Of a stretch of 64,000 nt of DNA, positions 23,392 to 48,532 are shown in pieces. Both the position numbers and the translations under genes were made by a program. Source of the stretch: a phage. The stretch lies in the NCBI GenBank assembly GCA_014685065.1, contig GCA_014685065.1_3930.1. One strand, 5' to 3'. Positions within the stretch are counted from its first letter, which is position 1, and each line of letters begins with the position of its first letter. The notes under the pieces are model-generated. The model had not been told where the DNA came from. It did no database searches and worked only from the letters and a program-made list of their open reading frames with translations.

Positions 23392-25008
23392 TCAACGTCT
23401 AAGCCCCTCATATGGGTTTCCTCTCACTAAATCTGTGTGAGCACCCATTGATGGTGGCTTGAATAATTTAACTTCGTTAAGACTGTTGAAAGCATCACTG
23501 GTAGCATCCACTTGGTCATCTTTAGTTTTACCGTCACCACAAAAGCCTTCAAGTTCTTGAAAGTAAGCTTCATTCCAACTACCTCTCAAGACTTTTACAA
23601 GTCCAGCTTCAGAAGCAGCAGAAAATCCCGCAAAGCGGGTAACTTTATCTTTATTTGTTGGTTTGGCTCTTGCTCGATAACCTTTCTCGGCAAGTTTCCT
23701 GATGAGGGATGTTGCGTAGGATTTACCAGCAGCGCCTGGGTCTTGAGGGATAAAAATACCAGTTCGCTTACCGTCACTTTCAGCAGTCAAATTAATTTGT
23801 GTTTCGACTCCAGAGGGTCTATCTCTAAATCTTACTACATCAATGATATAATAGCAACCGTCTTTTTTAGATTTACCCATCTTAACACCTGCTGTCCAGT
23901 CTGGATTAGGGTTAATCTCAGATGGTAAAGTTGCTGCTAAGTCCCATGCTCTAACATCAAATACATCTTCTGGGAGTGAATCAACAATTTCACACCATTG
24001 TCTTTGCCAATAGTTTGAACCTTCTGCACGAGCCTTCCAGTTACCGAAACGAAGTCTTGCAACGTTTACAGGAGTGTTGTTTTCCAACTTACCACGGTAC
24101 TTAGGCTCTAAGAAGTCAAGGATTGGGTTATCATCAATCGTACCAGAAATAAAGGTGTATGTTTGAGGAATCTCAAGGGGGAACATTTCAAGAATCTTGT
24201 CTCTCTCCCAATCAGAAACCATCACGCCATCGTGCATTACATACCAACGAATACGACCACATTTTTCAGGGTCTGGGTAGCCTTCTTCATCTAAGAATGG
24301 CTCTACCCAATCGTAAATAAAGTGGTCTCTGTCTGGGTTCATGGAAATCTTCATGTATGAATCGCCTTCAGCACCAGAACGTAGACGGGTTTGTAGGTAT
24401 GAAATCTGTGAAGCAGAGAAGTGTGTACCTTCGTCAAAGTAAATAGCTGAGTATTCAATACCCTGATGACCTTCAGCGTGCTTTTCAAGTTCTAGGTAGG
24501 TAAACTTGATAGTTGCCCCAGAAGGGAATGTGATAGTCATTTTCTGCTCGTGAGGAATCCCACCAAACTTACCAAATAGTTTCTTTGCAGCAGGCCATAA
24601 ACCACCTTGTAACTGTGTTGTATTTCGACGGAAATATACAGCATTATAGTTAGGGTCTTCAATAAATCTTAAAGAGTCCATTAACAATGCGGCAGTCTTA
24701 CCAGCACCAGCAGCACCACCATAGAGAACCAAGTCAGCATTAGTATTTAAAAAGACCTCTTGAGAACCCGGCTGAGGGGCTACATAGTTCTTATCAGTCA
24801 TCAATTTAAAGATAAGGCGAACTTGGTCTGGTGTGTATCTTAATAAAGTCAGAATTTGAGTTGGAAGGAATTTAGAGGGGTCTTTACCGAATGATTTAAT
24901 AATTTCTTTTACTTCATCAGAAAGCCCCAACTCTCCAGCTAGGACTTTCCTAACATCTTCCACTCGCTTCTGCTTAACAGCATTTAAGTCCATTAAGCGC
25001 CTCCGCAA
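23392..25008 (-). CDS. terminase large subunit
   Basis: 538 aa; Walker A (LVLYGGAAGAGKTAALL), Walker B-like (IYFDEGTHF) and C-terminal nuclease acidic motifs. Confidence 0.85.
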   Translation of the reverse strand: MRRRLMDLNAVKQKRVEDVRKVLAGELGLSDEVKEIIKSFGKDPSKFLPTQILTLLRYTPDQVRLIFKLMTDKNYVAPQPGSQEVFLNTNADLVLYGGAAGAGKTAALLMDSLRFIEDPNYNAVYFRRNTTQLQGGLWPAAKKLFGKFGGIPHEQKMTITFPSGATIKFTYLELEKHAEGHQGIEYSAIYFDEGTHFSASQISYLQTRLRSGAEGDSYMKISMNPDRDHFIYDWVEPFLDEEGYPDPEKCGRIRWYVMHDGVMVSDWERDKILEMFPLEIPQTYTFISGTIDDNPILDFLEPKYRGKLENNTPVNVARLRFGNWKARAEGSNYWQRQWCEIVDSLPEDVFDVRAWDLAATLPSEINPNPDWTAGVKMGKSKKDGCYYIIDVVRFRDRPSGVETQINLTAESDGKRTGIFIPQDPGAAGKSYATSLIRKLAEKGYRARAKPTNKDKVTRFAGFSAASEAGLVKVLRGSWNEAYFQELEGFCGDGKTKDDQVDATSDAFNSLNEVKLFKPPSMGAHTDLVRGNPYEGLRR

Positions 25009-25014
25009 ATAGAA

Positions 25015-25215
25015 TTATTCAGAGTCTGTAGCAGTCTCTTCTTTCTTAACTTCGAATTTAGCATCAACAGCATCAAGAAGTGCATCCATAGATGCCTCTT
25101 TAATATCAATACCTGTTGCTACAGATAATCTGTCTGCAATTGCCATGATAGTGTTCTGCATAAATTCCAGCTTTTTGTTAGCTTCATAAAGTTCTTTATA
25201 AACGGTCTCGCTCAT
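25015..25215 (-). CDS. hypothetical protein upstream of terminase (small-terminase candidate is unproven)
   Basis: 66 aa acidic ORF; SD GGAGAAAACATA before ATG. Confidence 0.4.
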   Translation of the reverse strand: MSETVYKELYEANKKLEFMQNTIMAIADRLSVATGIDIKEASMDALLDAVDAKFEVKKEETATDSE

Positions 25216-25249
25216 TATGTTTTCTCCAAATAATTAACCATGTTTCCCC

Positions 25250-25276
25250 TTAAAAAAGACGGCACAGAGACCGTCA
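25250..25276 (-). terminator. rho-independent terminator downstream of tRNA cluster
   Basis: Minus-sense hairpin GACGG-TCTCTGTG-CCGTC followed by UUUUUU. Confidence 0.5.
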
Positions 25277-25338
25277 AGGAGAAACCACAATGTACGTCAG
25301 AGACATACTGTATAAGTCTTCCTATAAAGTATAACTCT

Positions 25339-25401
25339 GTAAAAAAGCCCTGTCTAAAAATACTCTTCGGTAGCGAAAGGAAGAATACTTATAGCAGGGC
25401 A
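25339..25401 (-). terminator. long imperfect hairpin plus U-tract (terminator or processing site) after first tRNA
   Basis: Minus-sense GCCCTG...CAGGGC arms with internal AAGTATTCTTC/GAAGAGTATTT pairing, followed by UUUUUU. Confidence 0.45.
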
Positions 25402-25437
25402 TTATTATTATTTTAATTGAGAGAGAGTAAAATAACT

Positions 25438-25513
25438 TGGAGAATCCGAAGGGACTCGAACCCTTATAAACCTGTTTTGCAGACAGGCACATAGCCATTT
25501 CTGTCACGGATTC
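25438..25513 (-). tRNA. tRNA-Cys (anticodon GCA)
   Basis: Hand-folded cloverleaf: acceptor GAATCCG/CGGATTC, anticodon loop CTGCAAA, T-loop TTCGAGT, CCA encoded. Confidence 0.65.
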
Positions 25514-25517
25514 AAAT

Positions 25518-25610
25518 TGGAGGAAGATACCAGACTTGAACTGGTACACCGATTTCTCAGCTACTGGCAGTTTAGCAAACTGCTCCCTTACCTTTTAGGG
25601 TTAATCTTCC
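25518..25610 (-). tRNA. tRNA-Ser (anticodon GCU), class II
   Basis: 93 nt; acceptor GGAAGAT/ATCTTCC, anticodon loop TTGCTAA, long variable arm, T-loop TTCAAGT, CCA encoded. Confidence 0.6.
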
Positions 25611-25611
25611 A

Positions 25612-26346
25612 TTATTTCTGTAATGCGTTCTTCATTTCTGGTGTTGCAATAGTGTCAATTACACCAGTTTTACAGGCATCATCAAACCAGTCTGGTAAGA
25701 TACCTGCTAAGAACCCATTGATATTCGTTTTAAGGTACTCTGCAATAAGGGCAGCTTCTTCTTCAATCATCTGCACAACTTCATCTGCATAAGCTGTAAT
25801 CTTTGAGATACCTTCATTAATCTTACTGACAGCTTGGTTAGCTAAATCAGAAACAGTATCAAGACCCTTGTCAATAGCGTCTTGTAAGTCACTTAATACA
25901 TCGTTAACACTCTCTAGTGTACTGTTAATCGTATCAATAGCTTTTTGACCATATTCTGTAGCAACACCCATAATACCACTGAACGGTGTACAACCAACTT
26001 GTTCTCCTGCTGCACCCATAACATTGGAATATCCATTTGCTACCTGCATACGTGATGAAAACTCATCAATAGATTTTTGACCGTAGTCTGTCAGGGTCTT
26101 AGTAGTTGCTGTAGTGCTTGTAAGGCTTGTTGTAAAGCTGTTTAGAAGGACTGTTGTAAGTCCAGCAGCAACAAGTTTCTCCTGCATTGTAGGGTCTGTT
26201 ACAGAACTAATAGAGCTTACAAGTGATGTAGAAGCAGCTACGGTTCCACCGAGAACTGCTGCACCAGTAATAAGTGGGTTAGAAAACCCTTTACCGGTTT
26301 TTAAGAGATTAAAAATCTCCTTACCTTGTTCTGTCATCTCTTTCAT
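25612..26346 (-). CDS. hypothetical protein within tRNA cluster
   Basis: ORF track start 26409 overlaps tRNA-Phe; start moved to internal ATG (MKEMTEQ...); Ser/Thr-rich middle, helical C-terminus. Confidence 0.45.
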   Translation of the reverse strand: MKEMTEQGKEIFNLLKTGKGFSNPLITGAAVLGGTVAASTSLVSSISSVTDPTMQEKLVAAGLTTVLLNSFTTSLTSTTATTKTLTDYGQKSIDEFSSRMQVANGYSNVMGAAGEQVGCTPFSGIMGVATEYGQKAIDTINSTLESVNDVLSDLQDAIDKGLDTVSDLANQAVSKINEGISKITAYADEVVQMIEEEAALIAEYLKTNINGFLAGILPDWFDDACKTGVIDTIATPEMKNALQK

Positions 26347-26362
26347 TAAGCACCTTTGAAAT

Positions 26363-26439
26363 TGGTAGTCCAGTGGGATTTGAACCCTCTTCTCATGTTT
26401 TTCAGACACGCGCTTTAACCATATAAGCTACTTGGACTA
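26363..26439 (-). tRNA. tRNA-Phe (anticodon GAA)
   Basis: Acceptor TAGTCCA/TGGACTA, anticodon stem CGTGT/ACATG with loop CTGAAAA, T-loop TTCAAAT. Confidence 0.55.
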
Positions 26440-26444
26440 TAAAT

Positions 26445-26520
26445 TGGGGTGACCTACGGGATTTGAACCCGTATAGACCATGTTCACAGCATGGGTCATT
26501 GCCATTTATGATAAGGCCAC
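26445..26520 (-). tRNA. tRNA-His (anticodon GUG)
   Basis: Acceptor GTGGCCT/AGGTCAC, anticodon loop CTGTGAA, T-loop TTCAAAT, CCA encoded. Confidence 0.65.
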
Positions 26521-26551
26521 ATTTAAGGACTCTCGTAAGAACCCTTAGAAG

Positions 26552-26627
26552 TGGCAGCGGCATAAGGATTTGAACCTTAATAGGACAGCTTCAGAGACTG
26601 TTGCATTGCCAGTTATGCTATACCGCT
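26552..26627 (-). tRNA. tRNA-Gln (anticodon CUG)
   Basis: Acceptor AGCGGTA/TGCCGCT, D-stem GCAT/ATGC, anticodon loop CTCTGAA, T-stem TAAGG/CCTTA, CCA encoded. Confidence 0.6.
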
Positions 26628-26632
26628 AAATT

Positions 26633-26711
26633 TGGTACTCCATATCGGATTCGAACCGATACATAACACAGATTTTAAGTCTGGCCTCTCTGCCAATTGG
26701 AGTAATGGAGC
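26633..26711 (-). tRNA. tRNA with anticodon UAA (Leu-type) but class I architecture
   Basis: Acceptor GCTCCAT/ATGGAGT, A73, anticodon loop CTTAAAA, perfect T-arm ATCGG-TTCGAAT-CCGAT; short variable region. Confidence 0.45.
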
Positions 26712-26713
26712 AT

Positions 26714-26788
26714 TGGCGGGGGATGTTGGAATTGAACCAACTTCTTCGATTTCAAAGACCGAGGTTTTAACCTTGTAAACTAATCCCC
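26714..26788 (-). tRNA. tRNA-Gln (anticodon UUG)
   Basis: Anticodon stem TCGGT/ATCGA, loop CTTTGAA, T-arm GTTGG-TTCAATT-CCAAC, CCA encoded. Confidence 0.55.
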
Positions 26789-26797
26789 TTTAAATCT

Positions 26798-27355
26798 TTA
26801 CTTTCTCAGTGGATGAATAAAGAATGCCAACATAACTCTTTCCCTTGAGAATGCTCTTTCTTCTGGGACAACACTTTTTAGTTTCCATCCAATATAAATT
26901 CTCCAGTAAAACTGTTTACCAAAGACTTTAATTGATGGGATAAAAGCGAATAATCCCCAAGCATTACTGTTCCACATTAGGAGATAACCTGTCTGATTAT
27001 CTTCAGGGTCAGAACTTACGTTGATATTACCTTTCCACTTAGTAACATCTTTTACATCTCTTCCTAATACATGGTAAGAGAAGTTATAAGCTTTGTTTCT
27101 CCAGAGCCATCCGACTCTCTGCATGTAGACACCCAGCTTACCAATCTTTCTAATCTTAGCCCATCGTTCGATATGACCTTCGTCACCATCAATTGGATTG
27201 TCATATGTCTCCATCCATCTAAATCCGAAAGGTAAGTGGCCTTTCTTCTCACTGTAAAATGGAACTACGAAAGGTGCTAAGATAACTGCTAAGGTTGCTG
27301 CTAATGGTTCTAGCAAAGCTAGGAAAATCCATGAAGCATATTTTAAATATCTCAT
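26798..27355 (-). CDS. hypothetical membrane protein within tRNA cluster
   Basis: 185 aa; N-terminal hydrophobic segments, Trp-rich; sits exactly between two tRNAs. Confidence 0.5.
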   Translation of the reverse strand: MRYLKYASWIFLALLEPLAATLAVILAPFVVPFYSEKKGHLPFGFRWMETYDNPIDGDEGHIERWAKIRKIGKLGVYMQRVGWLWRNKAYNFSYHVLGRDVKDVTKWKGNINVSSDPEDNQTGYLLMWNSNAWGLFAFIPSIKVFGKQFYWRIYIGWKLKSVVPEERAFSRERVMLAFFIHPLRK

Positions 27356-27364
27356 CTAAATAGC

Positions 27365-27440
27365 CTCTTTAAATTGGCGCAGGATAAGGGATTCGAACCC
27401 CTATTAACAGCTTCGTAGACTGTTGCTCTATCCATTTGAA
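27365..27440 (-). tRNA. tRNA-Arg (anticodon ACG)
   Basis: Acceptor GCAGGAT/ATCCTGC, anticodon stem ACAGT/GCTGT, loop CTACGAA, T-loop TTCGAAT, CCA encoded. Confidence 0.65.
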
Positions 27441-27445
27441 CTAAT

Positions 27446-27523
27446 CCTGCAAAATTGGTGTTCCAAGACGGATTCGAACCGTCACTAGTACAAGGTTTGA
27501 GCTTGCATCCTCTGCCAATTGGG
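27446..27523 (-). tRNA. tRNA with anticodon CAA (Leu-type), class I architecture
   Basis: Acceptor GTTCCAG/TTGGAAC, A73, anticodon stem GCAAG/CTTGT, loop CTCAAAC, T-arm GACGG-TTCGAAT-CCGTC. Confidence 0.45.
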
Positions 27524-27524
27524 A

Positions 27525-27599
27525 TACTGGAACATGGTACTCACTAAAGGACTTGAACCTTTTTCTTCATCTTGTAAGGGTGGTGTTTTACCATATAAA
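27525..27599 (-). tRNA. tRNA, probable Val (anticodon UAC); weak anticodon stem
   Basis: Good acceptor, D and T arms (AAAGG-TTCAAGT-CCTTT); loop CTTACAA but anticodon stem has two C/A mismatches. Confidence 0.35.
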
Positions 27600-27604
27600 C
27601 TAAG

Positions 27605-27690
27605 CGAGTATGAAAGAGGTCTGAAGTTGTGCCGCTAACTCAACTCCGTGGAATTTGTTACGGTCTTCAGTTGACACCAGCGGTCTTTCA
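27605..27690 (-). repeat. structured spacer element (CUGAAGACCG family, copy e)
   Basis: Closing inverted repeat AGAGGTC...GACCTCT; internal CTGAAG...CTTCAG stem; contains ACGGTCTTCAG box shared with the other spacers. Confidence 0.4.
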
Positions 27691-27694
27691 CTTG

Positions 27695-27771
27695 ACCTCT
27701 GAATTGGTGCTGCTCACAGGACTCGAACCTGCATTTCCATCCTTACAAGGGATGTGTAATAGCCAATTATA
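27695..27771 (-). tRNA. tRNA-Thr (anticodon UGU)
   Basis: Acceptor GCTGCTT/GAGCAGC, anticodon stem CATCC/GGATG, loop CTTGTAA, CCA encoded. Confidence 0.65.
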
Positions 27772-27777
27772 CGAAAG

Positions 27778-27852
27778 CAGCATTGTTTGGAGCATCCAGA
27801 GGGAATCGAACCCTCAACCTCAGTTTGGAAGACTGTAATTTTCCCGTTTAAA
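27778..27852 (-). tRNA. tRNA-Gly (anticodon UCC)
   Basis: Acceptor GCATCCA/TGGATGC, anticodon loop CTTCCAA, T-arm GAGGG-TTCGATT-CCCTC. Confidence 0.6.
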
Positions 27853-27858
27853 CTATGG

Positions 27859-27934
27859 ATGCACTAATTGGTGGAGAAGCAGGGAATTGAACCCTGTACT
27901 TAAGTTTGCAAAACTTATGTTTTAACCATGTAAA
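27859..27934 (-). tRNA. tRNA-Ala (anticodon UGC)
   Basis: Anticodon stem TAAGT/ACTTA, loop TTTGCAA, T-arm CAGGG-TTCAATT-CCCTG, CCA encoded. Confidence 0.6.
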
Positions 27935-27940
27935 CTACAT

Positions 27941-28016
27941 CCCCAATGTTTGGTACAGGTGGAGGGAATTGAACCCATCGTCTTACTGATTAAGAGTCAG
28001 CCGCATAACCATTTTG
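27941..28016 (-). tRNA. tRNA-Lys (anticodon CUU)
   Basis: Acceptor GCAGGTG/CACCTGT, anticodon stem GCTGA/TCAGT, loop CTCTTAA, CCA encoded. Confidence 0.55.
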
Positions 28017-28023
28017 CTACACC

Positions 28024-28100
28024 TGCATTAATTTGGTACACCTAGAGAGATTCGAACTCACACTGAGCAGATTCTAAGTCTGCTGCCTCTACCAATTGGG
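28024..28100 (-). tRNA. tRNA with anticodon UAG (Leu-type), class I architecture
   Basis: Acceptor GCACCTA/TAGGTGT, A73, anticodon stem GCAGA/TCTGC, loop CTTAGAA, T-loop TTCGAAT. Confidence 0.45.
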
Positions 28101-28356
28101 CTATAGGTGCATTAAATCTTTTTAGAGAACTTCTAAGAACCTAAGCAACAAGGTTCCACAACAAGCTGTAATAACCTTAGAAGCCCTCTAAAAAGACCTA
28201 ATTTGGTCTTTGCATAGTCTTGTTTAATCCGGTGACTAGAACCTTTGGAGAGCTTGATATTATCTCTTCTCCGTGACACCTACTAGGTGCTTTACTGTGC
28301 GTGTACGACAATACACGAGGGATACCAAAGCAACATCCGAATGAAGCTTGGCTTTA

Positions 28357-28446
28357 AATCTTATTAGGCGGTAAGTAAAGGAGTCGAACCCTCACCGTAT
28401 CTCTACAGTGGCAACTGTTTTCAAGACAGTTTGGCTACCATTAGCC
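28357..28446 (-). tRNA. tRNA-Ser (anticodon UGA), class II
   Basis: ~90 nt; acceptor GGTAGGT/ACTTACC, perfect anticodon stem ACTGT/ACAGT, loop CTTGAAA, long variable arm; only CC of CCA encoded. Confidence 0.55.
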
Positions 28447-28459
28447 GCTACCTACCCCT

Positions 28460-28542
28460 AATAAGACTTTGGCATGGGACGGAGGAGTTGAACCACTTTG
28501 AAACGGTTTTGGAGGCCGTTGCTCATGCCTTAGAGTCTTAAC
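28460..28542 (-). tRNA. tRNA-like gene, possible Trp (anticodon CCA); atypical D-region and T-stem
   Basis: Perfect acceptor GTGGGAC/GTCCCAT with CCA; loop CTCCAAA; D-loop over-long and T-stem with mismatches, may be degenerate. Confidence 0.35.
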
Positions 28543-28684
28543 ATCGTCCCACACTATAATTCGAAGCTTACCGTATTTTCACAACACTGTAAAGCCCCTT
28601 CTCAGATTATTTACATGTTCTGGAAAACATGAGATACAGACCACCTCCTTACACGGAGACCCGATAAGGTCGTCTAAGCAATCT

Positions 28685-28761
28685 GCTAACTATTTGGCAC
28701 ACCCTACAGGATTCGAACCTGTAACTAACGATTTAGAAGACCGTTGCTCTATCCAATTGAA
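28685..28761 (-). tRNA. tRNA-Arg (anticodon UCU)
   Basis: Acceptor GCACCCT/AGGGTGT, anticodon stem ACGGT/ATCGT, loop CTTCTAA; D-arm near-identical to tRNA-Arg(ACG). Confidence 0.65.
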
Positions 28762-29008
28762 CTAAGGGTGCATTAATCTTTAAAGACTCTCTTAGAAAGC
28801 CCTTAAAGATGCCCACCTTATTAATCATACCGTGGGCGAGTACGCCAAATTCTTTGATGAGGGATTGGAAGACCTCACTGGTGTTTAGCCTATCAAGCTA
28901 CTGCCAGAAAAACATTGTCGTTTGCATTTATTTTAAATTTGCAAAATAGACGCTACGCAACGAAAACTAAGGTTACTATAAAGTGGTCACATCTCAATGT
29001 CAACAACT

Positions 29009-29084
29009 TTATTGAAATTGGTACTGTGAGAAGGATTCGAACCTTCTGCCTTTCGGTTATCAGCCGAATGCACATCCATATGTG
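29009..29084 (-). tRNA. tRNA-Ile (anticodon GAU)
   Basis: Acceptor GCTGTGA/TCACAGT, D-stem GCAC/GTGC, anticodon stem TTCGG/CCGAA, loop CTGATAA, CCA encoded. Confidence 0.65.
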
Positions 29085-29087
29085 CTT

Positions 29088-29573
29088 TCACAGCATTGTT
29101 ACCCCTTCGTGTACCTCTCTGTGGCAATTTGCACACAGTAATACACACTTATCAACTTCAGACTTCATTACCTCTATAGAGAAGTGTTTTTGTCCTACTG
29201 TGAAGTCCTTTGTATTAGGGTCTAAGTGGTGAAACTCTAAAGCCTTTATGCACTTATTGTATCCACAAATTGAGCAACAACCACCTTTGTAATCAACTAA
29301 AACCCTCTTAAGTTTGTCACGAGACTTTTTAACGTGTTGTGACTTCGCTTTCTTTTCTTCATCGGGGTTTTTGTATTGTTTCAGAATACCATTTGAAATA
29401 CATTCATCACAATACTTTCTTGATTTTGGTGTTTGTTTTCCACATGAATGACAAGAGCCTTCTTGTCTTCTTTTTGGATGACTCTTGTTGTTTACCCTTG
29501 CAGCACAAGAGCGTGAACAATATTTTCCGCCTTTAACGGCTTTGTTGTCACAATCTTTATTAGCACAAAACAT
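29088..29573 (-). CDS. HNH homing endonuclease with N-terminal Cys-rich zinc-finger repeats
   Basis: C-terminal HNH motif (CCSICGYN...LEFHHLDP...CVLLCANCHREVH); four CxxC-type pairs N-terminally; ORF-track start at 29732 would overlap tRNA-Met so start set at MFCANKDC. Confidence 0.7.
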   Translation of the reverse strand: MFCANKDCDNKAVKGGKYCSRSCAARVNNKSHPKRRQEGSCHSCGKQTPKSRKYCDECISNGILKQYKNPDEEKKAKSQHVKKSRDKLKRVLVDYKGGCCSICGYNKCIKALEFHHLDPNTKDFTVGQKHFSIEVMKSEVDKCVLLCANCHREVHEGVTML

Positions 29574-29589
29574 AATATCACCAACGAAT

Positions 29590-29666
29590 TGGAGGTTCAG
29601 ATGGGAATCGAACCCACATTCATAGGGCTTATGAGACCCCTGCATTACCTTATCTGCGACTGAACC
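29590..29666 (-). tRNA. tRNA-Met (anticodon CAU; elongator vs initiator vs Ile2 unresolved)
   Basis: Acceptor GGTTCAG/CTGAACC, anticodon stem GGGGT/GCCCT with G-U ends, loop CTCATAA, T-loop TTCGATT. Confidence 0.6.
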
Positions 29667-29670
29667 ATAT

Positions 29671-29746
29671 TGGTAGAAGTGGAGGGATTCGAACCCATCG
29701 CCTGTCAGATTAAAAGTCTGCCGCATCACCATTCTGCTACACTTCC
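29671..29746 (-). tRNA. tRNA-Lys (anticodon UUU)
   Basis: Anticodon loop CTTTTAA, T-arm similar to tRNA-Lys(CUU), CCA encoded. Confidence 0.6.
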
Positions 29747-29752
29747 ATTAAA

Positions 29753-29894
29753 ATTATCTTTGTAGATAAGCTATCCAGACTTGCTTAAGGTCTGTAGCGA
29801 TGTGCCTTGTTGGGTTTAAATCTAGAATTTACCCTTTCACTCTTTGTGGTCGCATACTCACAGGTAAGCTTAATAACTTATCTACAAAGATAAT
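29753..29894 (-). repeat. perfect 18-bp inverted repeat pair flanking a 106-bp core (hairpin RNA or MITE-like insertion)
   Basis: ATTATCTTTGTAGATAAG at 29753-29770 and exact reverse complement at 29877-29894; core holds CAGAC-TTGCTTAAG-GTCTG hairpin. Confidence 0.5.
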
Positions 29895-29895
29895 T

Positions 29896-30028
29896 ACCAG
29901 ACCGTTGTTTATCATCTTAAGTGCTACCATTACACCAACTCGACATCTGCCGAGTGAAGGAATCGAACCTTCGCCTTTTCTTTACCGGAGAAATAGATTG
30001 TTTAAGTTTTGCTGTAAACGGTCTTCTG
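29896..30028 (-). repeat. spacer element copy a (CCAGACC...GGTCTTCTG family) containing tRNA-like T-arm and D-arm in permuted order
   Basis: Closing stem AGACCGTT/AACGGTCT; internal GGCGAAGG-TTCGATT-CCTTC T-arm-like hairpin followed by GAGTTGGTGTAATGGTAGCAC D-arm-like segment. Confidence 0.4.
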
Positions 30029-30040
30029 TAAATTTGTTGA

Positions 30041-30116
30041 GCCAGACCAAGTTTTAAATTTTCAAAATTAAATTGGCTTGAAATTTCATACATTCTTGCT
30101 GTATTTGGTCTTCTGC
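30041..30116 (-). repeat. spacer element copy b (CCAGACC...GGTCTTCTG family)
   Basis: GCCAGACCAAG...TTGGTCTTCTG closing inverted repeat; conserved ACAGCAAG box in minus sense. Confidence 0.4.
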
Positions 30117-30202
30117 TCCTTTAAAGAATACTCGTAAGAACCCTTTAAGGGAGGGGCTAAATAGCCCTCTCAAAACATCATCTTGAAATACTTATTATAA
30201 TT

Positions 30203-30279
30203 TGGCGGTTACGAAGGGATTTGAACCCTCATCATCTCCCGTGACAGGGGAGTATTTTAACCAGTTAAACTACATAACC
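30203..30279 (-). tRNA. tRNA-Asp (anticodon GUC)
   Basis: Anticodon stem CTCCC/GGGAG, loop CTGTCAC, T-arm GAGGG-TTCAAAT-CCCTT, CCA encoded. Confidence 0.65.
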
Positions 30280-30285
30280 TTTATT

Positions 30286-30373
30286 TGGTGTGCCGTGTAG
30301 GAGTCGAACCTACCGAGTCTCAATGACAAGGGATTTACAGTCCCCACCGCTACCATCTACGGGATAACGACAC
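30286..30373 (-). tRNA. tRNA-Tyr (anticodon GUA), class II
   Basis: 88 nt; acceptor GTGTCGT/ACGGCAC, anticodon stem GGGGA/TCCCT, loop CTGTAAA, long variable arm, T-arm GTAGG-TTCGACT-CCTAC. Confidence 0.6.
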
Positions 30374-30442
30374 ATTTAATTTCTATTCAGGCTAAGGACT
30401 TGCACCTTACAAATCGGTGAGCAATCGCTTCTCTCCTAAATT

Positions 30443-30519
30443 TGGCGGTTAGTCAGGGATTCGAACCCTGTGCCATTCGCTTAACAGGCGACCGCACATA
30501 CCTTATGTGCTTCCTAACC
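30443..30519 (-). tRNA. tRNA-Asn (anticodon GUU)
   Basis: D-stem GCAC/GTGC, anticodon loop CTGTTAA, T-arm CAGGG-TTCGAAT-CCCTG, CCA encoded. Confidence 0.6.
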
Positions 30520-30529
30520 TTAATACATT

Positions 30530-30591
30530 GCCAGACCGTGTTTTTTCTTTTATCCGCAAAAAGTATTTTGTTGCTGAATACGGTCTTCTGC
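30530..30591 (-). repeat. spacer element copy c (CCAGACC...GGTCTTCTG family)
   Basis: GCCAGACCGTG...ATACGGTCTTCTG closing inverted repeat with ~45-nt structured loop. Confidence 0.4.
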
Positions 30592-30596
30592 AAAAT

Positions 30597-30672
30597 TGGA
30601 GGCGGGTGCAGGAGTCGAACCTGCCGATACCATGCTAATGAGACATGTGAGACGCCCTTTCTCTATACCCGC
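30597..30672 (-). tRNA. second CAU-anticodon tRNA (Met/fMet/Ile2 candidate)
   Basis: D-stem GAGA/TCTC, anticodon stem CATGT/GCATG, loop CTCATTA (unusual U at position 37), T-arm GCAGG-TTCGACT-CCTGC. Confidence 0.5.
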
Positions 30673-30683
30673 AATTCTTAATG

Positions 30684-30759
30684 ACCAGACCAAATCTCTT
30701 CTTTGTCCGATTTACCTTCAGATGAATAAGATTAAGTTTGCTGTAATTGGTCTTCTGTC
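30684..30759 (-). repeat. spacer element copy d (CCAGACC...GGTCTTCTG family)
   Basis: GACCAGACCAAA...ATTGGTCTTCTG closing inverted repeat; conserved ACAGCAAACTTAA box in minus sense. Confidence 0.4.
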
Positions 30760-30764
30760 AAAAC

Positions 30765-30842
30765 TGGCGTTCCAGAAGGGATTTGAACCCTCAAATATCC
30801 ACTTTGAAAGAGTGGTGACTTTACCATTTTGTCTACTGGAAC
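30765..30842 (-). tRNA. tRNA-Glu (anticodon UUC)
   Basis: Perfect acceptor GTTCCAG/CTGGAAC and anticodon stem CCACT/AGTGG, loop CTTTCAA, CCA encoded. Confidence 0.65.
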
Positions 30843-30849
30843 ATTAATT

Positions 30850-30929
30850 TGGTCTCCGTTGAAGGATTTGAACCCTCGACCCCTTGCTCCCAAAGCAAGT
30901 GCTGCTAAACCAAACTGAGCTAAACGGAG
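30850..30929 (-). tRNA. tRNA-Pro (anticodon UGG)
   Basis: Anticodon stem CTTGC/GCAAG, loop TTTGGGA; 3' half resembles bacterial tRNA-Pro (GGGGTCGAGGGTTCAAATCC); CCA encoded. Confidence 0.6.
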
Positions 30930-30954
30930 ATAAACTTTTCAAACTCTATGTAAC

Positions 30955-30986
30955 CACTTTAACATTATTTTTTAGTGGTTGTCAAG
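30955..30986 (-). promoter_or_regulatory. candidate sigma70-type promoter for the tRNA operon
   Basis: Minus-sense TTGACA-N17-TTAAAG with AT-rich upstream tract, ~25 nt before tRNA-Pro 5' end; AACCACT/AGTGGTT inverted repeat overlaps it. Confidence 0.35.
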
Positions 30987-31042
30987 AACTTTTTTAAAAT
31001 ATTTTTCAGTATCTTAGAAAAGCTCTCATTTCGTTTCTATGT

Positions 31043-31082
31043 AGAACATATTAAAGGGTATCAAACACATTGTCAATACCCT
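31043..31082. terminator. hairpin AAAGGGTAT...ATACCCTTT (terminator-like on plus strand)
   Basis: 9-bp perfect arms, T-run follows on plus strand; lies just downstream of the vWA gene stop. Confidence 0.3.
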
Positions 31083-31094
31083 TTTTAAAACTTT

Positions 31095-32510
31095 TTACCA
31101 GATGTAACGGTCAATCATTACTGCTTTGAGCATTACGCTGATTGGGTCAAACTTCTCACCACCAAGCAGAGCTTTTAAAGTGGCTGGAGAGAACCCTGAT
31201 ACCATTGCTACACCATTATCCTTAACAGATACTTCGCAAGTACCATTACGGTTTGCTAAGTACCAGAATACCAGTTGTGGCATTTTGTATCCAGCTTTTT
31301 TGTACTTACTACGAATCGCTTCAAAGTTTGTACGACCATTAGCTCCATCAACCTGATTGAACTCCATATCAGAGAAGATAATAAGCTTACTTGGCATATC
31401 TTTCTGAGTCAAGTTGTTTCTCTTACCTGTTTCAAGAATGCGGTCAAAAGCTGCTTGTAAGTTAGTTGAGCCATATTCAACGTGTCGCATCACCTGACGA
31501 TGACGGTTTCGTAAATCACCACTCAGTTCGATGAAGTGAGGGTTTGTCGAATAAACCATCAACTCATTCTTAAAGCAACCTGTATTGCGTTCTGCTACAT
31601 ACAAGGCAAGTGATACACCAATATCCAGAGCAGTAATGGAGCCAAAATTCACCCAAGACATTGAACTTGATACATCAGACATACACAAGATGTTTTCACC
31701 TTCTGCCATCCAGTTTGGTAGTGCTTTCCACTGCTCATTAGCAACATCTGCATTACCATACTTGACAGATTTAATCACATCGTATGGGTAAACAGCACCA
31801 GCGTTAATCTTAGTCTCACCTTTTGATAAGGACTCGATGTAAGCTTTGTAACGCTCTCCATCTTTACGGTTAAACAGTTTTTGGTAACGTGCAGCAGCAA
31901 GTGAAGGAATCTTACTGTAGTCAATCTTACCAAACTCATTAGCAGAGATTTTTTGCTCAACTGTATCAGATAGTGCAGACAACAGTGTGCGATACTCTTT
32001 CTCACTCAAGTTTGCAAACTTGCAGAAACGTTTTACAAACTGTTTGTGACGTGGTTTTACTCGTGGTAACCACTTAGCTGCTAAACCTGCTGTTGCAGGG
32101 TCTAGTAAAGCTGCTTCTAAATGTTTGAAGGCATCTGTCTCGAAACGAGTACCTACAAAGATTTTGAAGTCATCAAAGCGACCAAGCTCTGCAATCTTAT
32201 CCATAATGCGAAGAACCTGCGTAGGCTCTAAAACTTTATCTTCAATCGCTTGAAGTAAAACAGTTCGGAAAGCTTTACGCTCACCCATACCTTCTCGTAC
32301 ATCTCGCATATGCAGTAAAATACGAACTGCAACATCAACATCCTCATGCAAAGCTTTGTAGAACAAGTCTGGTAAGATTTCTACATTGCTACGGCTGGAA
32401 CCAGCAGCTTTGTAAAAGTCCACAAGAGCAGACATTGATGAAGTATGGTTTACAGCACCATTTTCAGTTCGACCTGCATGAAGGTGCGCATGTTTAAATA
32501 ATTCGCTCAT
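31095..32510 (-). CDS. von Willebrand factor A (vWA) domain protein with helical N-terminal domain
   Basis: 471 aa; MIDAS-like DxSxS motif (MSDVSSSMS) and downstream Thr/Asp positions (GSTNL, IIFSDMEF) typical of vWA. Confidence 0.55.
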   Translation of the reverse strand: MSELFKHAHLHAGRTENGAVNHTSSMSALVDFYKAAGSSRSNVEILPDLFYKALHEDVDVAVRILLHMRDVREGMGERKAFRTVLLQAIEDKVLEPTQVLRIMDKIAELGRFDDFKIFVGTRFETDAFKHLEAALLDPATAGLAAKWLPRVKPRHKQFVKRFCKFANLSEKEYRTLLSALSDTVEQKISANEFGKIDYSKIPSLAAARYQKLFNRKDGERYKAYIESLSKGETKINAGAVYPYDVIKSVKYGNADVANEQWKALPNWMAEGENILCMSDVSSSMSWVNFGSITALDIGVSLALYVAERNTGCFKNELMVYSTNPHFIELSGDLRNRHRQVMRHVEYGSTNLQAAFDRILETGKRNNLTQKDMPSKLIIFSDMEFNQVDGANGRTNFEAIRSKYKKAGYKMPQLVFWYLANRNGTCEVSVKDNGVAMVSGFSPATLKALLGGEKFDPISVMLKAVMIDRYIW

Positions 32511-32522
32511 ATTTTACTCTCT

Positions 32523-32560
32523 TCTCTCATTGTTGTTTGATGTGACAGACTTTAGAGCAA
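32523..32560 (-). promoter_or_regulatory. operator-like palindrome overlapping a TTGACA box upstream of the vWA gene
   Basis: TGACAGACT...AGTCTGTCA 9-bp perfect inverted repeat around CTATAAAGTTGCTCTAAAG; no U-tract. Confidence 0.35.
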
Positions 32561-32590
32561 CTTTATAGAGTCTGTCAACACCTTTTAAAA

Positions 32591-32962
32591 TTATTTTTTG
32601 AGGGTTGCAACAGCAGAGAACGTTGGTTTGTTATCTGTCTGAGACTGACCGCCGTTATCAGGGGTCTTCTTAGTGTCTGCTGCAATTGCTTTCATCTCAC
32701 CTGCTGAGTGAGTCATGATAGTTTTACCGACCTCAATCATACTCTTGATGGTTACGTCATCTGTGTTTAACCCGAACTCTGCAAGCTTAGCCGCGTCCCT
32801 TGTAACAATCGCCTCAAACAGCTTTGCAGCGAACTCAGCAGAATTATCAATGGTCAGTTGAGCTTTTACGAGTGAGCTTTTGTTACGAGAGCCTTTTGGT
32901 CTTCCAGATGGGTTTCCAGACTGGCCTTTTTTAAACTGGCCTTTGTTTGTTCTGTTTTTCAT
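32591..32962 (-). CDS. hypothetical protein with Gly/Pro-rich basic N-terminus
   Basis: 123 aa; SD AAGAGG before ATG; N-terminal GQSGNPSGRPKGSRNK motif. Confidence 0.5.
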   Translation of the reverse strand: MKNRTNKGQFKKGQSGNPSGRPKGSRNKSSLVKAQLTIDNSAEFAAKLFEAIVTRDAAKLAEFGLNTDDVTIKSMIEVGKTIMTHSAGEMKAIAADTKKTPDNGGQSQTDNKPTFSAVATLKK

Positions 32963-33190
32963 TGGTATGCCTCTTATAAGACCTCTTAAAAGGCTTTTAA
33001 GATAAAAGATAGATATCCAGAAAGATATCTGTTTAAATAGCCTTTTTAGAGGAACCTTTTAAGTTATCTTCTAAGTATTTATAAGCCTACACCTTGTCAA
33101 GTACTTTGTCAACAACTTTTTTAACTTGCAATAGTTCTTGACTTGTTGTATGGATTACTGTACCATCTTACTTAAAGCTGTAGGTCTGCC
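32963..33190. promoter_or_regulatory. divergent intergenic control region with two palindromes
   Basis: CTTAAAAG-G-CTTTTAAG and AGATATC-cagaaa-GATATCT inverted repeats; TTGTCA/TTGACT -35-like boxes on both strands. Confidence 0.35.
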
Positions 33191-33211
33191 TTGTTCTACA
33201 AAGGAGACTTA

Positions 33212-33373
33212 ATGAGAAAATCAAATAAACCGAAGAAAGGTAAGAATACCAATCACTGTAAGGAATCAAAAAGGGTAGAATTAATCTACTATTCGTCCTC
33301 TGAAATTGGTCTGTACCTGTTCTTTCAAAATTACAGAAGACAAGAGGATTATCTATGTGTAGTTCCCAATTAG
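33212..33373 (+). CDS. hypothetical small basic protein
   Basis: Start set at ATG preceded by SD AAAGGAGAC (track start 33191 lacks an RBS). Confidence 0.35.
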   Translation: MRKSNKPKKGKNTNHCKESKRVELIYYSSSEIGLYLFFQNYRRQEDYLCVVPN

Positions 33374-33588
33374 AAATCGCAGATATTATAGATTTATATC
33401 AAACTGCAAAGAGTCATGGCTATATAACCTCAATTGGAAAGAATAGTCACTATGATGCTTTGACTGGAATGTATTTCAGGGCAATGGCTCAATCTAGTGA
33501 ACAACACTTAATGGTTTCTTCCAGTGAGTTTACTTCGTTTCTCTATTGCAGCAAAATTATAAACCGCAGGAGAACTGAAAAATGTTAA
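33355..33588 (+). CDS. hypothetical protein
   Basis: 77 aa ORF overlapping neighbours on the plus-strand operon. Confidence 0.4.
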   Translation: MCSSQLEIADIIDLYQTAKSHGYITSIGKNSHYDALTGMYFRAMAQSSEQHLMVSSSEFTSFLYCSKIINRRRTEKC

Positions 33589-42845: not shown

Positions 42846-42937
42846 CTTGATAACTCCAGTTTAGGACTTTATTTAGTGGGGAAGGTCATTCCCTCCCCGT
42901 TGATTGACAATTTACAGACTTTTTATTGTCTCGTCAA
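42846..42937 (-). promoter_or_regulatory. type-A cassette: promoter TTGACG-N17-TAAATT plus leader hairpin and SD
   Basis: Hairpin GGGGAGGGAATGACCTTCCCC in leader; same layout as other type-A copies. Confidence 0.55.
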
Positions 42938-44004: not shown

Positions 44005-44100
44005 TTTTGAATCTCCTAGTTTAAGGACTTTATTTAGTGGGGAAGGTCATTCCCTCCCCGTTGATTGACAATTTACAGACTTTTATCAGGCTTGTCTAGT
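44005..44100 (-). promoter_or_regulatory. type-A cassette: promoter TAGACA-N17-TAAATT plus leader hairpin and SD
   Basis: Same conserved leader as other type-A copies. Confidence 0.5.
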
Positions 44101-45227: not shown

Positions 45228-45330
45228 TTTCAGAATCTCCAGTTTAGGACTTTATTTAGTGGGGGAGGTCATTCCCTCCCCGTTGATGTGTAATTTAGAC
45301 TATCTAAAAATCAGTGTCAACAAAAATTTT
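45228..45330 (-). promoter_or_regulatory. type-A cassette: consensus promoter TTGACA-N17-TAAATT plus leader hairpin and SD
   Basis: Exact TTGACA -35; leader hairpin GGGGAGGGAATGACCTCCCCC. Confidence 0.6.
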
Positions 45331-45735: not shown

Positions 45736-45821
45736 TTTTAAGTTCTCCAATTTAGGATTTAGTGGTAAAGCTCTTTATCTGGGGCTTACTTTATCGAACT
45801 ATAAGCCCCTTGTAAAGTACT
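45736..45821 (-). promoter_or_regulatory. type-B cassette
   Basis: GGGGCTTATAGTTCGATAAAGTAAGCCCC palindrome + AGATAAAGAGCTTTACC + SD. Confidence 0.45.
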
Positions 45822-46278: not shown

Positions 46279-46375
46279 TTTCAGAATCTCCAGTTTAGGA
46301 CTTTATTTAGTGGGGAAGGTCATTCCCTCCCCGTTGATGTGTAATTTAATCTATCTAAAAATCAGTGTCAACAGT
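46279..46375 (-). promoter_or_regulatory. type-A cassette: consensus promoter TTGACA-N17-TAAATT plus leader hairpin and SD
   Basis: Near-identical to cassette at 45228-45330. Confidence 0.6.
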
Positions 46376-47594: not shown

Positions 47595-47679
47595 TTTTGA
47601 ATCTCCAGTTTAGGATTGATTGGTAAAGCTCTTTATCTGGGGCTTAAGGTATCAGCTTTTAAGCCCCCTGTAAAGTACT
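47595..47679 (-). promoter_or_regulatory. type-B cassette
   Basis: GGGGGCTTAAAAGCTGATACCTTAAGCCCC palindrome + AGATAAAGAGCTTTACC + SD. Confidence 0.45.
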
Positions 47680-48442: not shown

Positions 48443-48532
48443 TTTTGAATCTCCTAGTTTAAGGGTTAATTTGGTAAAGCTCTTTATCTGGGGCTTACTT
48501 TATCGAACTATAAGCCCCATGTAAAGTACTTT
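48443..48532 (-). promoter_or_regulatory. type-B cassette
   Basis: GGGGCTTATAGTTCGATAAAGTAAGCCCC palindrome + AGATAAAGAGCTTTACC + SD TAGGAGATTC. Confidence 0.45.

What the first reader, a model, noticed from the sequence alone, without database searches (positions are those of the whole stretch)
31095..32580. vWA-domain protein preceded by a 9-bp perfect palindrome overlapping a promoter-like box
The 471-aa protein combines a helical N-terminal domain with a MIDAS-containing vWA domain; as I recall this architecture matches a domain of unknown function common in phages. Immediately upstream, TGACAGACT...AGTCTGTCA brackets a TTGACA box, suggesting operator control by a dimeric regulator.
Basis: partly seen in the sequence, partly recalled or inferred. 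Interest (0 to 1): 0.4.

Follow-up and report, generated by a model that had tools for sequence, protein, structure and literature searches.

The report
Phage Ro60-like gene and its promoter hairpin
This is the Ro60-like RNA-binding ring protein of a Felix O1-type phage, 98% identical to a protein reported to counter a bacterial defence system, and the palindrome in front of it is a promoter-overlapping hairpin, not a demonstrable repressor site.

Summary
The window comes from a Felixounavirus (wV8/Felix O1 type). The gene at 31095-32510 (- strand, 471 aa) is real. It matches Pfam DUF2828 and DUF7788 and PHROG 850 'RNA-binding protein'. All five MIDAS residues are invariant in 68 homologues. 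An AlphaFold model (pLDDT 91) matches full-length Ro60 structures, including a Thermus phage Ro60. The protein is 98% identical to Bas63 gp130. A 2024 preprint reports that gp130 counters the Ppl defence system and notes both its Ro60 fold and its position ahead of the tRNA cluster. So the protein part is correct but already known.

The 9-bp palindrome is also real (32543-32551 / 32569-32577). It overlaps a conserved sigma-70-type promoter (TTGACA-18-TAAAGT). A 9-bp inverted repeat is not rare by chance here: 13 observed against about 9 expected. The repeat extends to 13 imperfect pairs. In relatives every variable pair stays paired only through G·U on the sense strand. The half-site occurs nowhere else above chance. 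Neighbouring promoters carry hairpins of unrelated sequence. Several relatives keep the promoter but lack the hairpin. An operator for a dimeric regulator is therefore not supported. A hairpin in read-through RNA is the better, still unproven, reading.

The parts
31095..32510 (-). Gene for a 471-aa Ro60-like protein (DUF2828 + DUF7788; PHROG 850); orthologue of Bas63 gp130
   Evidence: ORF. Pfam and PHROG matches. 98% identity to bas63_0130 with the same neighbours. Foldseek top hits are all full-length Ro60 structures.
31719..32510 (-). N-terminal all-helical (HEAT-repeat-like) part, residues about 1-264
   Evidence: Secondary structure of the AlphaFold model m71082b00d7a5, pLDDT 91. Aligned to the Ro60 ring in the Foldseek hits 2i91, 1yvp, 9l5y and 2nvo.
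31146..31691 (-). C-terminal vWA-type domain (DUF7788), residues 274-455, with MIDAS residues D279/S281/S283 (31662-31676), T349 (31464-31466) and D381 (31368-31370)
   Evidence: Pfam DUF7788 over residues 274-455. MIDAS residues invariant in 68 sequences. A weak profile alignment places this motif on the Ro60 1yvp motif DVSASM.
32573..32578 (-). -35 hexamer TTGACA of the gene's sigma-70-type promoter, preceded by an A/T-rich tract and by GTG
   Evidence: Consensus scan: TTGACA-18-TAAAGT, 10 of 12 matches. Conserved in all Felixounavirus, Suspvirus and Mooglevirus relatives, in Yersinia phage P778 and in the metagenomic relatives at 47-63% protein identity; L126 has TTGACG. Annotated as a promoter in phage ASO1B by consensus similarity.
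32549..32554 (-). -10 hexamer TAAAGT (TAGAGT or TAGGTT in relatives); predicted transcription start about 32541-32543
   Evidence: The start site is inferred from spacing only and has not been mapped.
32569..32582 (-).
   Evidence: Exact 9-bp repeat. Extended pairing in the RNA fold. Consensus fold of 13 variants.
32539..32551 (-).
   Evidence: AGTCTGTC is invariant in all 13 sequence variants although the 17-nt spacer diverges.
32591..32962 (-). Upstream gene (123 aa, DUF5681; Bas63 gp129) whose read-through transcript would contain the whole hairpin
   Evidence: Adjacent to the Ro60-like gene only in Ounavirinae-type relatives.
31048..31084 (-). Terminator-like hairpin directly after the gene's stop codon (AAAGGGTAT...ATACCCTTT). 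Its 5' arm holds the next TTGACA and its T-rich tail is the next -10 (TAATAT).
   Evidence: Listed both as a promoter and as a terminator-like site. Repeat of 9-12 pairs. Hairpins of different sequence sit at the same place in L019, L032, P778, L124 and L125.
30956..30985 (-). Second promoter ahead of the tRNA cluster (TTGACA-18-TAAAGT) with a 7-bp inverted repeat AACCACT/AGTGGTT in the same geometry
25438..30929 (-). Cluster of 26 tRNA genes on the same strand, starting 165 nt downstream of the gene
   Evidence: ARAGORN. Rfam.

Best explanation
The gene encodes a Ro60-like ring protein: a HEAT-type helical domain closed by a MIDAS-bearing vWA domain. The window is from a Felixounavirus, and this gene is the second in the leftward unit that continues into the 26-tRNA cluster. 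It is the orthologue of Bas63 gp130, which is reported to neutralise the Ppl defence system. By analogy with Ro60 and with the Thermus phage Ro60, it most likely acts by binding structured or tRNA-like RNA (inferred).

The gene is transcribed from a host-type sigma-70 promoter (TTGACA-18-TAAAGT) and also by read-through from the upstream gene (both inferred). The palindrome is the core of a 13-pair imperfect inverted repeat wrapped around that promoter. It is most likely not a repressor binding site. It is better read as a hairpin that forms in the read-through RNA coming from the upstream gene. There it would act as a 3'-end, stability or insulation element between two transcription units (inferred). 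A clearer terminator-plus-promoter hairpin sits directly after the gene.

Shown here: the fold, MIDAS conservation, orthology, promoter conservation, the pairing pattern in relatives and the linkage to tRNA genes. Inferred: RNA binding, and the role of the hairpin.
For: Protein. Pfam DUF2828 and DUF7788. PHROG 850 at E = 1e-183. MIDAS residues invariant. AlphaFold model with pLDDT 91 and pTM 0.90. The eleven best Foldseek PDB hits are all full-length Ro60/TROVE proteins (E from 1.6e-8 to 1.2e-6, TM-score on the query 0.49-0.66), including the phage phiLo Ro60 9l5y. The protein is 98% identical to bas63_0130 with identical neighbours: a 123-aa gene upstream and tRNA-Pro downstream. The Bas63 gp130 deletion gives tiny plaques on a Ppl host, is complemented, and gp130 moved into T7 rescues T7 on that host (PMC11482910). 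The Thermus phage Ro60 binds Y-like RNAs and PNPase (PMC12135203). Of 75 non-Felix loci of the family in IMG/VR, 38 have tRNA or tmRNA genes within 10 kb. All 321 of these RNA genes lie on the gene's strand, and 19 loci have one within 1 kb. In Listeria phage LMTA-34 the gene lies between tRNA genes and an RtcB-type ligase.

Promoter. The -35 and -10 hexamers and their spacing are kept from Felixounavirus to relatives at 47-63% protein identity, while the flanking sequence diverges.

Hairpin. The sense-strand RNA fold is -15.6 kcal/mol with z = -3.45. In the 13 sequence variants, 98% of cells are paired. The three variable pairs that stay paired do so via AU/GU/GC, AU to GU and CG to UG, which is compatible only with the sense strand. 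In L125 (62% protein identity) the outer TGACAG/CTGTCA is kept while the inner arm is replaced by a different complementary sequence. Hairpins of unrelated sequence overlap the neighbouring promoters.
Against: The mechanism of gp130 is unknown, and the Ppl result comes from a preprint. gp130 works in T7, which has no phage tRNAs, so phage tRNAs are not required for that activity. There is no sequence-level match to the TROVE family and no Y RNA was found.

For the hairpin, covariation is statistically weak. No pair changes on both sides relative to the commonest pair, and 284 of 500 shuffles reach the observed score. One pair breaks in 3 of the 13 variants. The left arm lies entirely within the extended promoter consensus (G)TGTTGACA(G). 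The right arm covers the end of the -10 hexamer, the discriminator and the start site. Both arms could therefore be conserved for promoter reasons alone. The hairpin is absent at the orthologous promoter of P778, L032, L124 and L126. It has a 17-nt loop and no U-tract, so it is not a canonical terminator. There is no transcript mapping for any Felixounavirus.
Confidence: 0.6

Rival explanations
1. Operator. A dimeric phage or host regulator binds the two 9-bp half-sites and occludes the -35 and -10 hexamers. This would time expression of the Ro60-like gene and perhaps of the tRNA cluster.
For: The dyad is perfect at 9/9 and overlaps both promoter hexamers. The arms are more conserved than the spacer. 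With the extended 13-14-nt arms, the centres are about 30.5 bp apart, close to three helical turns. The temporal control of Felix O1 transcription is unexplained (PMC3185647).
Against: There are no further copies of the half-site above chance (19 against 22.6). The Mooglevirus version keeps only 6 of 9 positions as DNA symmetry, and all changes are G·U-compatible on one strand only. The 9-mer centres are 26 bp apart, about 2.5 turns. Neighbouring promoters have repeats of unrelated sequence, which would require a different regulator for each. The palindrome is absent in P778, L032, L124 and L126 although the promoter is kept. No candidate regulator was identified. The adjacent DUF5681 protein has no recognised DNA-binding fold in the libraries searched.
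Confidence: 0.12
2. Incidental symmetry. The promoter's extended -35 (TGTTGACAG) and its conserved start region (CTGTCACAT) happen to be complementary. The palindrome would then have no function of its own.
For: 9-bp inverted repeats are about as frequent in the window as chance predicts (13 against 8.75). Other promoters of this phage share TGTTGACA upstream and yACAT at the start. The covariation test is not significant. The repeat is lost in several lineages with no loss of the promoter.
Against: The pairing extends to 13 pairs with z = -3.45. Every substitution that keeps the pair is of the wobble-compatible type. L125 has a different inner arm that is again complementary. Four consecutive promoters in the tRNA region carry repeats of at least 7 bp, against 4 of 60 control TTGACA sites inside coding sequence.
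Confidence: 0.25
3. Divergent antisense promoter. The symmetry creates a second promoter on the + strand (GTGACA-18-TAGAGT, 32542-32571) that fires rightward, antisense to the DUF5681 gene.
For: The consensus scan lists it with 9 of 12 matches.
Against: Its -10 hexamer loses the critical last T in the L007-type, Suspvirus and Mooglevirus variants (TAGAGC, CAGAAC), while the repeat is otherwise kept.
Confidence: 0.03

Closest known systems
Bas63 (Escherichia phage JohannRWettstein, MZ501086) gp130, reported counter of the Ppl defence system (PhageMaP preprint, PMC11482910)
   Same: 98% identical over all 471 residues. Same neighbours: a 123-aa DUF5681 gene upstream and tRNA-Pro downstream. Same upstream promoter and palindrome.
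   Different: 11 amino-acid differences. The phenotype was not tested for this allele. The preprint does not discuss the promoter or the palindrome.
Ro60 / Rsr (TROVE proteins: Xenopus 1yvp/2i91, human 9nfa, Deinococcus 2nvo) and Thermus phage phiLo Ro60 (9l5y, PMC12135203)
   Same: Same overall architecture: a helical repeat ring closed by a vWA domain with a MIDAS motif. Full-length Foldseek matches, E from 1.6e-8 to 1.2e-6, TM-score on the query 0.49-0.66. Encoded next to tRNA or tRNA-like genes, as bacterial Ro60 lies next to tRNA-like Y RNAs (PMC4201824).
   Different: 10-17% sequence identity. No Pfam TROVE match. The profile search against PDB sequences gives only E = 0.93 to 1yvp. The protein is about 60 residues shorter than animal Ro60. 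No Y RNA was detected nearby. RNA binding has not been shown for any DUF2828 protein.
Pfam DUF2828 / DUF7788 and PHROG 850 ('RNA-binding protein'; 'Ro-like RNA binding protein' in mycobacteriophage annotation)
   Same: Full-length member. Homologues in 710 phage records across hosts from Mycobacterium to Listeria.
   Different: None. This is simply the family the protein belongs to, and the family's function is inferred, not tested.
Overlapping intrinsic terminator and promoter modules in compact phage genomes
   Same: The hairpin directly after the gene (31048-31084) has a stem, a T-rich tail that doubles as the -10 hexamer, and a -35 hexamer inside the 5' arm.
   Different: It does not meet the definition of a terminator.

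Membership tests
Pfam DUF2828 + DUF7788 / PHROG 850 | Score above the curated cut-off for both Pfam models; full-length match to the PHROG profile | tested here: met
   DUF7788 scores 147 bits (cut-off 27.1). DUF2828 scores 102.3 bits (cut-off 29). phrog_850 has E = 9.8e-184 over residues 1-471.
vWA domain with MIDAS | DxSxS...T...D metal-site residues present and conserved | tested here: met
   D279, S281, S283, T349 and D381 are invariant in 68 homologues with 40-89% identity to the window protein. Metal binding itself was not tested.
Ro60 / TROVE | Sequence membership (Pfam TROVE model, or a significant match to Ro60 sequences) | tested here: not met
   No TROVE hit at E <= 0.01. phmmer finds no Ro60. 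The profile gives 1yvp at E = 0.93 only.
Ro60 / TROVE | Fold: helical-repeat ring plus C-terminal vWA domain, matched over the full length | tested here: met
   The eleven top Foldseek PDB hits are Ro60/TROVE proteins, with 504-559 alignment columns and probability 1.00. The model has pLDDT 91.
Ro60 / TROVE | Partner Y RNA (stem with a Ro-binding site, often a tRNA-like domain) encoded nearby | tested here: inconclusive
   Rfam finds only tRNAs at gathering score and no Y-type family at E <= 5 in 25000-33500. Y RNAs are diverse and often escape models (PMC4201824). 26 tRNA genes follow the gene.
Ro60 / TROVE | Binds misfolded or Y RNA through the ring | not testable with these tools
   Needs RIP/CLIP or EMSA.
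Anti-defence protein countering Ppl (Bas63 gp130) | Orthology to the tested protein | tested here: met
   460 of 471 residues identical, with the same gene order.
Anti-defence protein countering Ppl (Bas63 gp130) | Rescues phage growth on a Ppl-expressing host | not testable with these tools
   Reported for Bas63 gp130 only, in a preprint.
Sigma-70-type promoter | -35 and -10 hexamers at 16-18 bp spacing, conserved in relatives | tested here: met
   TTGACA-18-TAAAGT. Kept in all relatives down to 47-63% protein identity. The start site is not mapped.
Operator of a dimeric regulator | DNA dyad symmetry maintained in relatives | tested here: not met
   Mooglevirus keeps 6 of 9 positions. The variants differ by changes that break DNA symmetry but keep G·U pairing. 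The palindrome is absent in P778, L032, L124 and L126.
Operator of a dimeric regulator | Half-site recurs at other regulated promoters | tested here: not met
   19 matches with up to 1 mismatch against 22.6 expected. The only exact copies outside the palindrome are one site at 26085.
Operator of a dimeric regulator | A cognate DNA-binding regulator that binds the site | not tested
   No candidate was identified. Needs EMSA or footprinting.
Intrinsic (Rho-independent) terminator | G+C-rich stem, short loop, U-tract directly after the stem | tested here: not met
   For the upstream palindrome: a 17-nt loop, followed by CAUCAAACAAC, and not listed by the terminator scan. The hairpin after the gene (31053-31084) is listed.
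Conserved RNA hairpin | Pairing kept through compensatory changes in relatives | tested here: inconclusive
   98.2% of cells are paired. Pair types are AU/GU/GC at one pair and AU/GU and CG/UG at two others. 284 of 500 shuffles do as well and the covariation term is only -0.64 kcal/mol. L125 has a different complementary inner arm.

The most novel reading that the evidence does not exclude
DUF2828 Ro60-like proteins may be dedicated partners of phage tRNA clusters. They might guard or quality-control phage tRNAs, or use a tRNA-like transcript as a Y RNA. The sense-strand hairpin in front of the gene might be an RNA ligand or an autoregulatory site for the protein. The tight same-strand linkage to tRNA and tmRNA genes across very different phages (19 of 75 loci within 1 kb, 321 of 321 RNA genes co-oriented) is not excluded as a functional coupling. 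Only one phage has been discussed in this light so far.
Probability: 0.1. Interest if true: 0.6.

Novelty: already known. Interest (0 to 1): 0.25.

Why it matters
The practical value is correct annotation. In most of the 250-odd Felix O1-type genomes this gene is labelled 'hypothetical protein', 'vWFA protein' or 'RNA-binding protein'. It can now be tied to a Ro60 fold and to a reported anti-defence phenotype.

Felix O1-type phages are used for typing and biocontrol, so knowing which genes counter host defences is useful.

The broad linkage of this family to phage tRNA clusters gives a concrete handle on an open question: what Ro60-type proteins do in phages. That idea has already been raised for Bas63.

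The promoter-overlapping hairpins are a small, testable feature of how these phages organise transcription, which the Felix O1 genome paper left unexplained.

Tried and rejected
1. Direct and profile sequence searches of the PDB found nothing significant. Only the fold comparison showed the Ro60 relationship.
2. NCBIfam gave no hits for either protein.
3. Rfam scans at gathering score and at E <= 5 found no Y RNA or other family near the gene.
4. A CGAA motif, as used to find Y-like RNAs in phage phiLo, is present in the loop only in Suspvirus variants, so it was dropped.
5. A regulon of half-sites was rejected.
6. An antisense promoter created by the symmetry was rejected, because its -10 hexamer is lost in several relatives.
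7. Cruciform extrusion at the promoter was considered and judged unlikely on general grounds (9-13-bp arms with a 17-bp spacer). It was not computed.
8. The upstream DUF5681 protein as a conserved partner was rejected. It is adjacent only in Ounavirinae-type relatives (L112, L032, L124-L126) and in none of the other 74 of the 75 non-Felix loci.
9. The direct repeat CTATAAAG/CTCTAAAG inside the loop is not conserved in relatives.
10. A literature search for Felixounavirus transcription start mapping found nothing. DUF2828 has no functional literature.
Full report
WHAT THE WINDOW IS. The stretch 30900-32700 is 97-98% identical to Escherichia phage wV8 and matches 252 other Felix O1-type phage records. 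The window is therefore a Felixounavirus genome segment. A cluster of 26 tRNA genes lies at 25438-30929 on the - strand.

THE OBSERVATION. The ORF 31095..32510 (- strand, 471 aa) exists as described. The palindrome is exact: TGACAGACT at 32543-32551 and AGTCTGTCA at 32569-32577, 17 nt apart. Read on the gene's strand, the region is TTGACA (32578-32573), an 18-nt spacer, then TAAAGT (32554-32549). It is preceded by an A/T-rich tract. The TTGACA box overlaps the distal arm and is not bracketed by the arms. The -10-like hexamer overlaps the proximal arm.

As a bare event, a 9-bp inverted repeat with a spacer of up to 30 nt is not unusual. The window has 13, and first-order Markov resamples give 8.75 on average.

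THE PROTEIN. Pfam gives DUF2828 (N-terminal) and DUF7788 (C-terminal), both far above cut-off. PHROGs gives phrog_850 'RNA-binding protein' at E = 1e-183. The family is large: more than 2,500 hits among the candidates scored. It is present in 710 phage records from hosts as different as Escherichia, Vibrio, Campylobacter, Mycobacterium, Listeria, Staphylococcus and Bacillus. Mycobacteriophage annotators call it 'Ro-like RNA binding protein'.

In an alignment of 68 homologues (40-89% identity to the window protein), the MIDAS residues D279, S281, S283, T349 and D381 are invariant.

Sequence searches of the PDB are uninformative. phmmer finds nothing relevant, and the profile hits Ro60 1yvp only at E = 0.93, although it aligns the two MIDAS motifs. 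An AlphaFold model built on the alignment is confident (pLDDT 91.1, pTM 0.90). Its eleven best Foldseek matches in the PDB are all full-length Ro60/TROVE proteins: Xenopus and human Ro60, Deinococcus Rsr and the Ro60 of Thermus phage phiLo. Their E-values run from 1.6e-8 to 1.2e-6 and their TM-scores on the query from 0.49 to 0.66. Isolated vWA domains follow only at E >= 7e-4. The 'helical N-terminal domain plus vWA' is therefore a Ro60-type ring.

ALREADY CHARACTERISED. Bas63 (phage JohannRWettstein, MZ501086) gene bas63_0130 encodes a 471-aa protein that is 98% identical to the window protein. It has the same neighbours and the same upstream sequence, palindrome included. The PhageMaP preprint (PMC11482910) reports several things about it. 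Deleting gene 130 reduces Bas63 to tiny plaques on a host carrying the Ppl defence system. Complementation restores growth. gp130 expressed from a plasmid or from the T7 genome rescues T7 on that host. The authors also note the Ro60-like structure and the position directly upstream of the tRNA genes. For the Thermus phage Ro60, binding of two Y-like RNAs encoded upstream of the gene, and of host PNPase, has been shown (PMC12135203).

LINKAGE TO tRNA GENES. I fetched 80 loci of the family from IMG/VR. Of the 75 that are not Felix O1-type, 38 carry tRNA or tmRNA genes within the 10 kb available on either side. All 321 of these RNA genes lie on the same strand as the protein gene, and 19 loci have one within 1 kb, 15 of them immediately downstream. 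I had no whole genomes for a formal control, so the enrichment is semi-quantitative. A phage tRNA cluster usually covers a few percent of the genome.

In Listeria phage LMTA-34 the gene lies between tRNA genes and an RtcB-type 'tRNA splicing ligase'. This recalls the bacterial rsr-yrlA-rtcBA arrangement, a comparison I make from my own knowledge. No Y RNA family was detected near the gene in the window.

THE PROMOTER. The hexamers and their spacing are kept in every relative examined. These include Felixounavirus, Suspvirus and Mooglevirus, Yersinia phage P778 at 53% protein identity (TTGACA-18-TAGAGT), and metagenomic relatives at 47-63% identity. The surrounding sequence diverges. This phylogenetic footprint supports a real host-type promoter. 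One GenBank record annotates it as a promoter by consensus similarity. No start-site mapping exists. The Felix O1 genome paper lists only a few predicted promoters and states that temporal control is unknown (PMC3185647).

THE PALINDROME. It extends beyond the nine bases. On the sense strand, GGUGU-U-GACAGACU pairs with AGUCUGUC-ACAUC, giving 13 pairs with one bulged U, at -15.6 kcal/mol and z = -3.45.

Thirteen distinct sequence variants from relatives were aligned. The spacer diverges freely, apart from the -10 hexamer, and the arms are conserved. Four pairs vary. One is A-U, G·U or G-C in different lineages. One goes from A-U to G·U. One goes from C-G to U·G. One breaks in three variants. 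All the changes that keep a pair work only on the sense strand. As DNA, they degrade the dyad: Mooglevirus keeps 6 of 9 positions. The same pattern appears in the two promoters downstream of the gene, with C-to-T changes in the 5' arm and an A-to-G change in the 3' arm.

The formal test is not significant, however. 284 of 500 shuffles reach the observed score, and no pair changes on both sides relative to the commonest pair.

A relative at 62% protein identity (L125) keeps TGACAG...CTGTCA, but its inner arm is a different complementary sequence that fills the whole spacer. A sister lineage (L124), P778, L126 and L032 lack the hairpin at this promoter.

AGAINST AN OPERATOR. The half-site is not over-represented (19 against 22.6 expected). 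The 9-mer centres lie 26 bp apart, about 2.5 helical turns. The neighbouring promoters at 31076, 30985 and 29003 carry inverted repeats of 7-9 bp of unrelated sequence. Only 4 of 60 TTGACA sites inside coding sequence reach 7 bp, and none reaches 9.

The hairpin directly after the gene (31048-31084) is present, with different sequences, in every lineage looked at. It has the form of an intrinsic terminator whose 5' arm contains the next -35 hexamer and whose T-tail is the next -10 hexamer. The picture is of hairpins interleaved with promoters on both sides of the Ro60-like gene, not of one regulator's binding site.

The upstream hairpin has a 17-nt loop and no U-tract, so it is not a canonical terminator. 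I infer a role at the RNA level in read-through transcripts, such as 3'-end protection or insulation. Incidental symmetry remains a serious rival, because both arms lie in promoter-constrained sequence.

VERDICT. The protein interpretation is right but incomplete, and the protein is already known through a 98%-identical characterised orthologue. The operator interpretation is not supported.

My probabilities for the palindrome are roughly: sense-strand RNA hairpin 0.4-0.45, incidental 0.25-0.3, operator about 0.12, antisense promoter about 0.03, and the remainder something else. Interest is low to moderate. The only part that reaches beyond what is published is the breadth of the tRNA linkage and the promoter-overlapping hairpins.

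Noticed in passing
window 25438-30929 (- strand): A cluster of 26 tRNA genes interspersed with small ORFs and several sigma-70-like promoters (for example 29003: TTGACA-17-TATAGT with a 7-bp inverted repeat ATAAAGT/ACTTTAT around it). There are sub-threshold tRNA-like Rfam hits at 29955-30005 and 28476-28550.
   Followed up: partly
window, whole (for example 4511/4522, 28587, 41608/41618, 47668, 61605): The octamer CTNTAAAG occurs 57 times on both strands, against about 13 expected from base composition (33 against about 10 without the self-complementary CTTTAAAG). Several copies are intergenic and paired about 10-11 nt apart next to G/C runs. This may be a phage-specific promoter or regulatory motif.
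   Followed up: no
window 42875-42910 and 44036-44071 (+ strand); 45270-45320 and 46320-46371 (- strand): A repeated element of about 25 nt, AGGTCATTCCCTCCCCGTTGA, sits next to TTGACA boxes in four copies, two in each orientation. This suggests duplicated promoter and leader modules in a region of small genes.
   Followed up: no
window 45781-45809, 47639-47667, 48489-48519: Three near-identical hairpins, GGGGCTTA...TAAGCCCC (8-9-bp stems with 11-15-nt loops), in intergenic positions.
   Followed up: no
window 32591-32962 (- strand): The upstream 123-aa DUF5681 protein starts with a basic GQSGNPSGRPKGSRNK segment resembling an AT-hook core (GRP). It is adjacent to the Ro60-like gene only in Ounavirinae-type relatives.
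   Followed up: partly
window 33100-33112 (- strand) and the 32963-33354 divergent region: Tandem TTGACA boxes 12 nt apart lie in the divergent intergenic region between the leftward unit (DUF5681, Ro60-like gene, tRNAs) and the rightward genes starting at 33355. This is probably the P41-type promoter region of the Felix O1 paper.
   Followed up: no
loci L051, L053, L060, L063, L069, L083: In several unrelated phage contigs, a tmRNA gene lies 3-7 kb from the Ro60-like gene on the same strand: downstream in five of them, and 3.3 kb upstream in L051.
   Followed up: no
L123 (Listeria phage LMTA-34, NC_042048) 3959-8019: The family member lies between a tRNA cluster and genes annotated as metal-dependent phosphohydrolase and tRNA splicing ligase (RtcB type). 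This is an RNA-repair-like neighbourhood.
   Followed up: no
L121 (Mycobacterium phage Lolly9) 5419-5801: A 380-nt gap without an annotated gene lies directly after the 'Ro-like RNA binding protein' gene. This is the place where a Y-like RNA would be expected.
   Followed up: no
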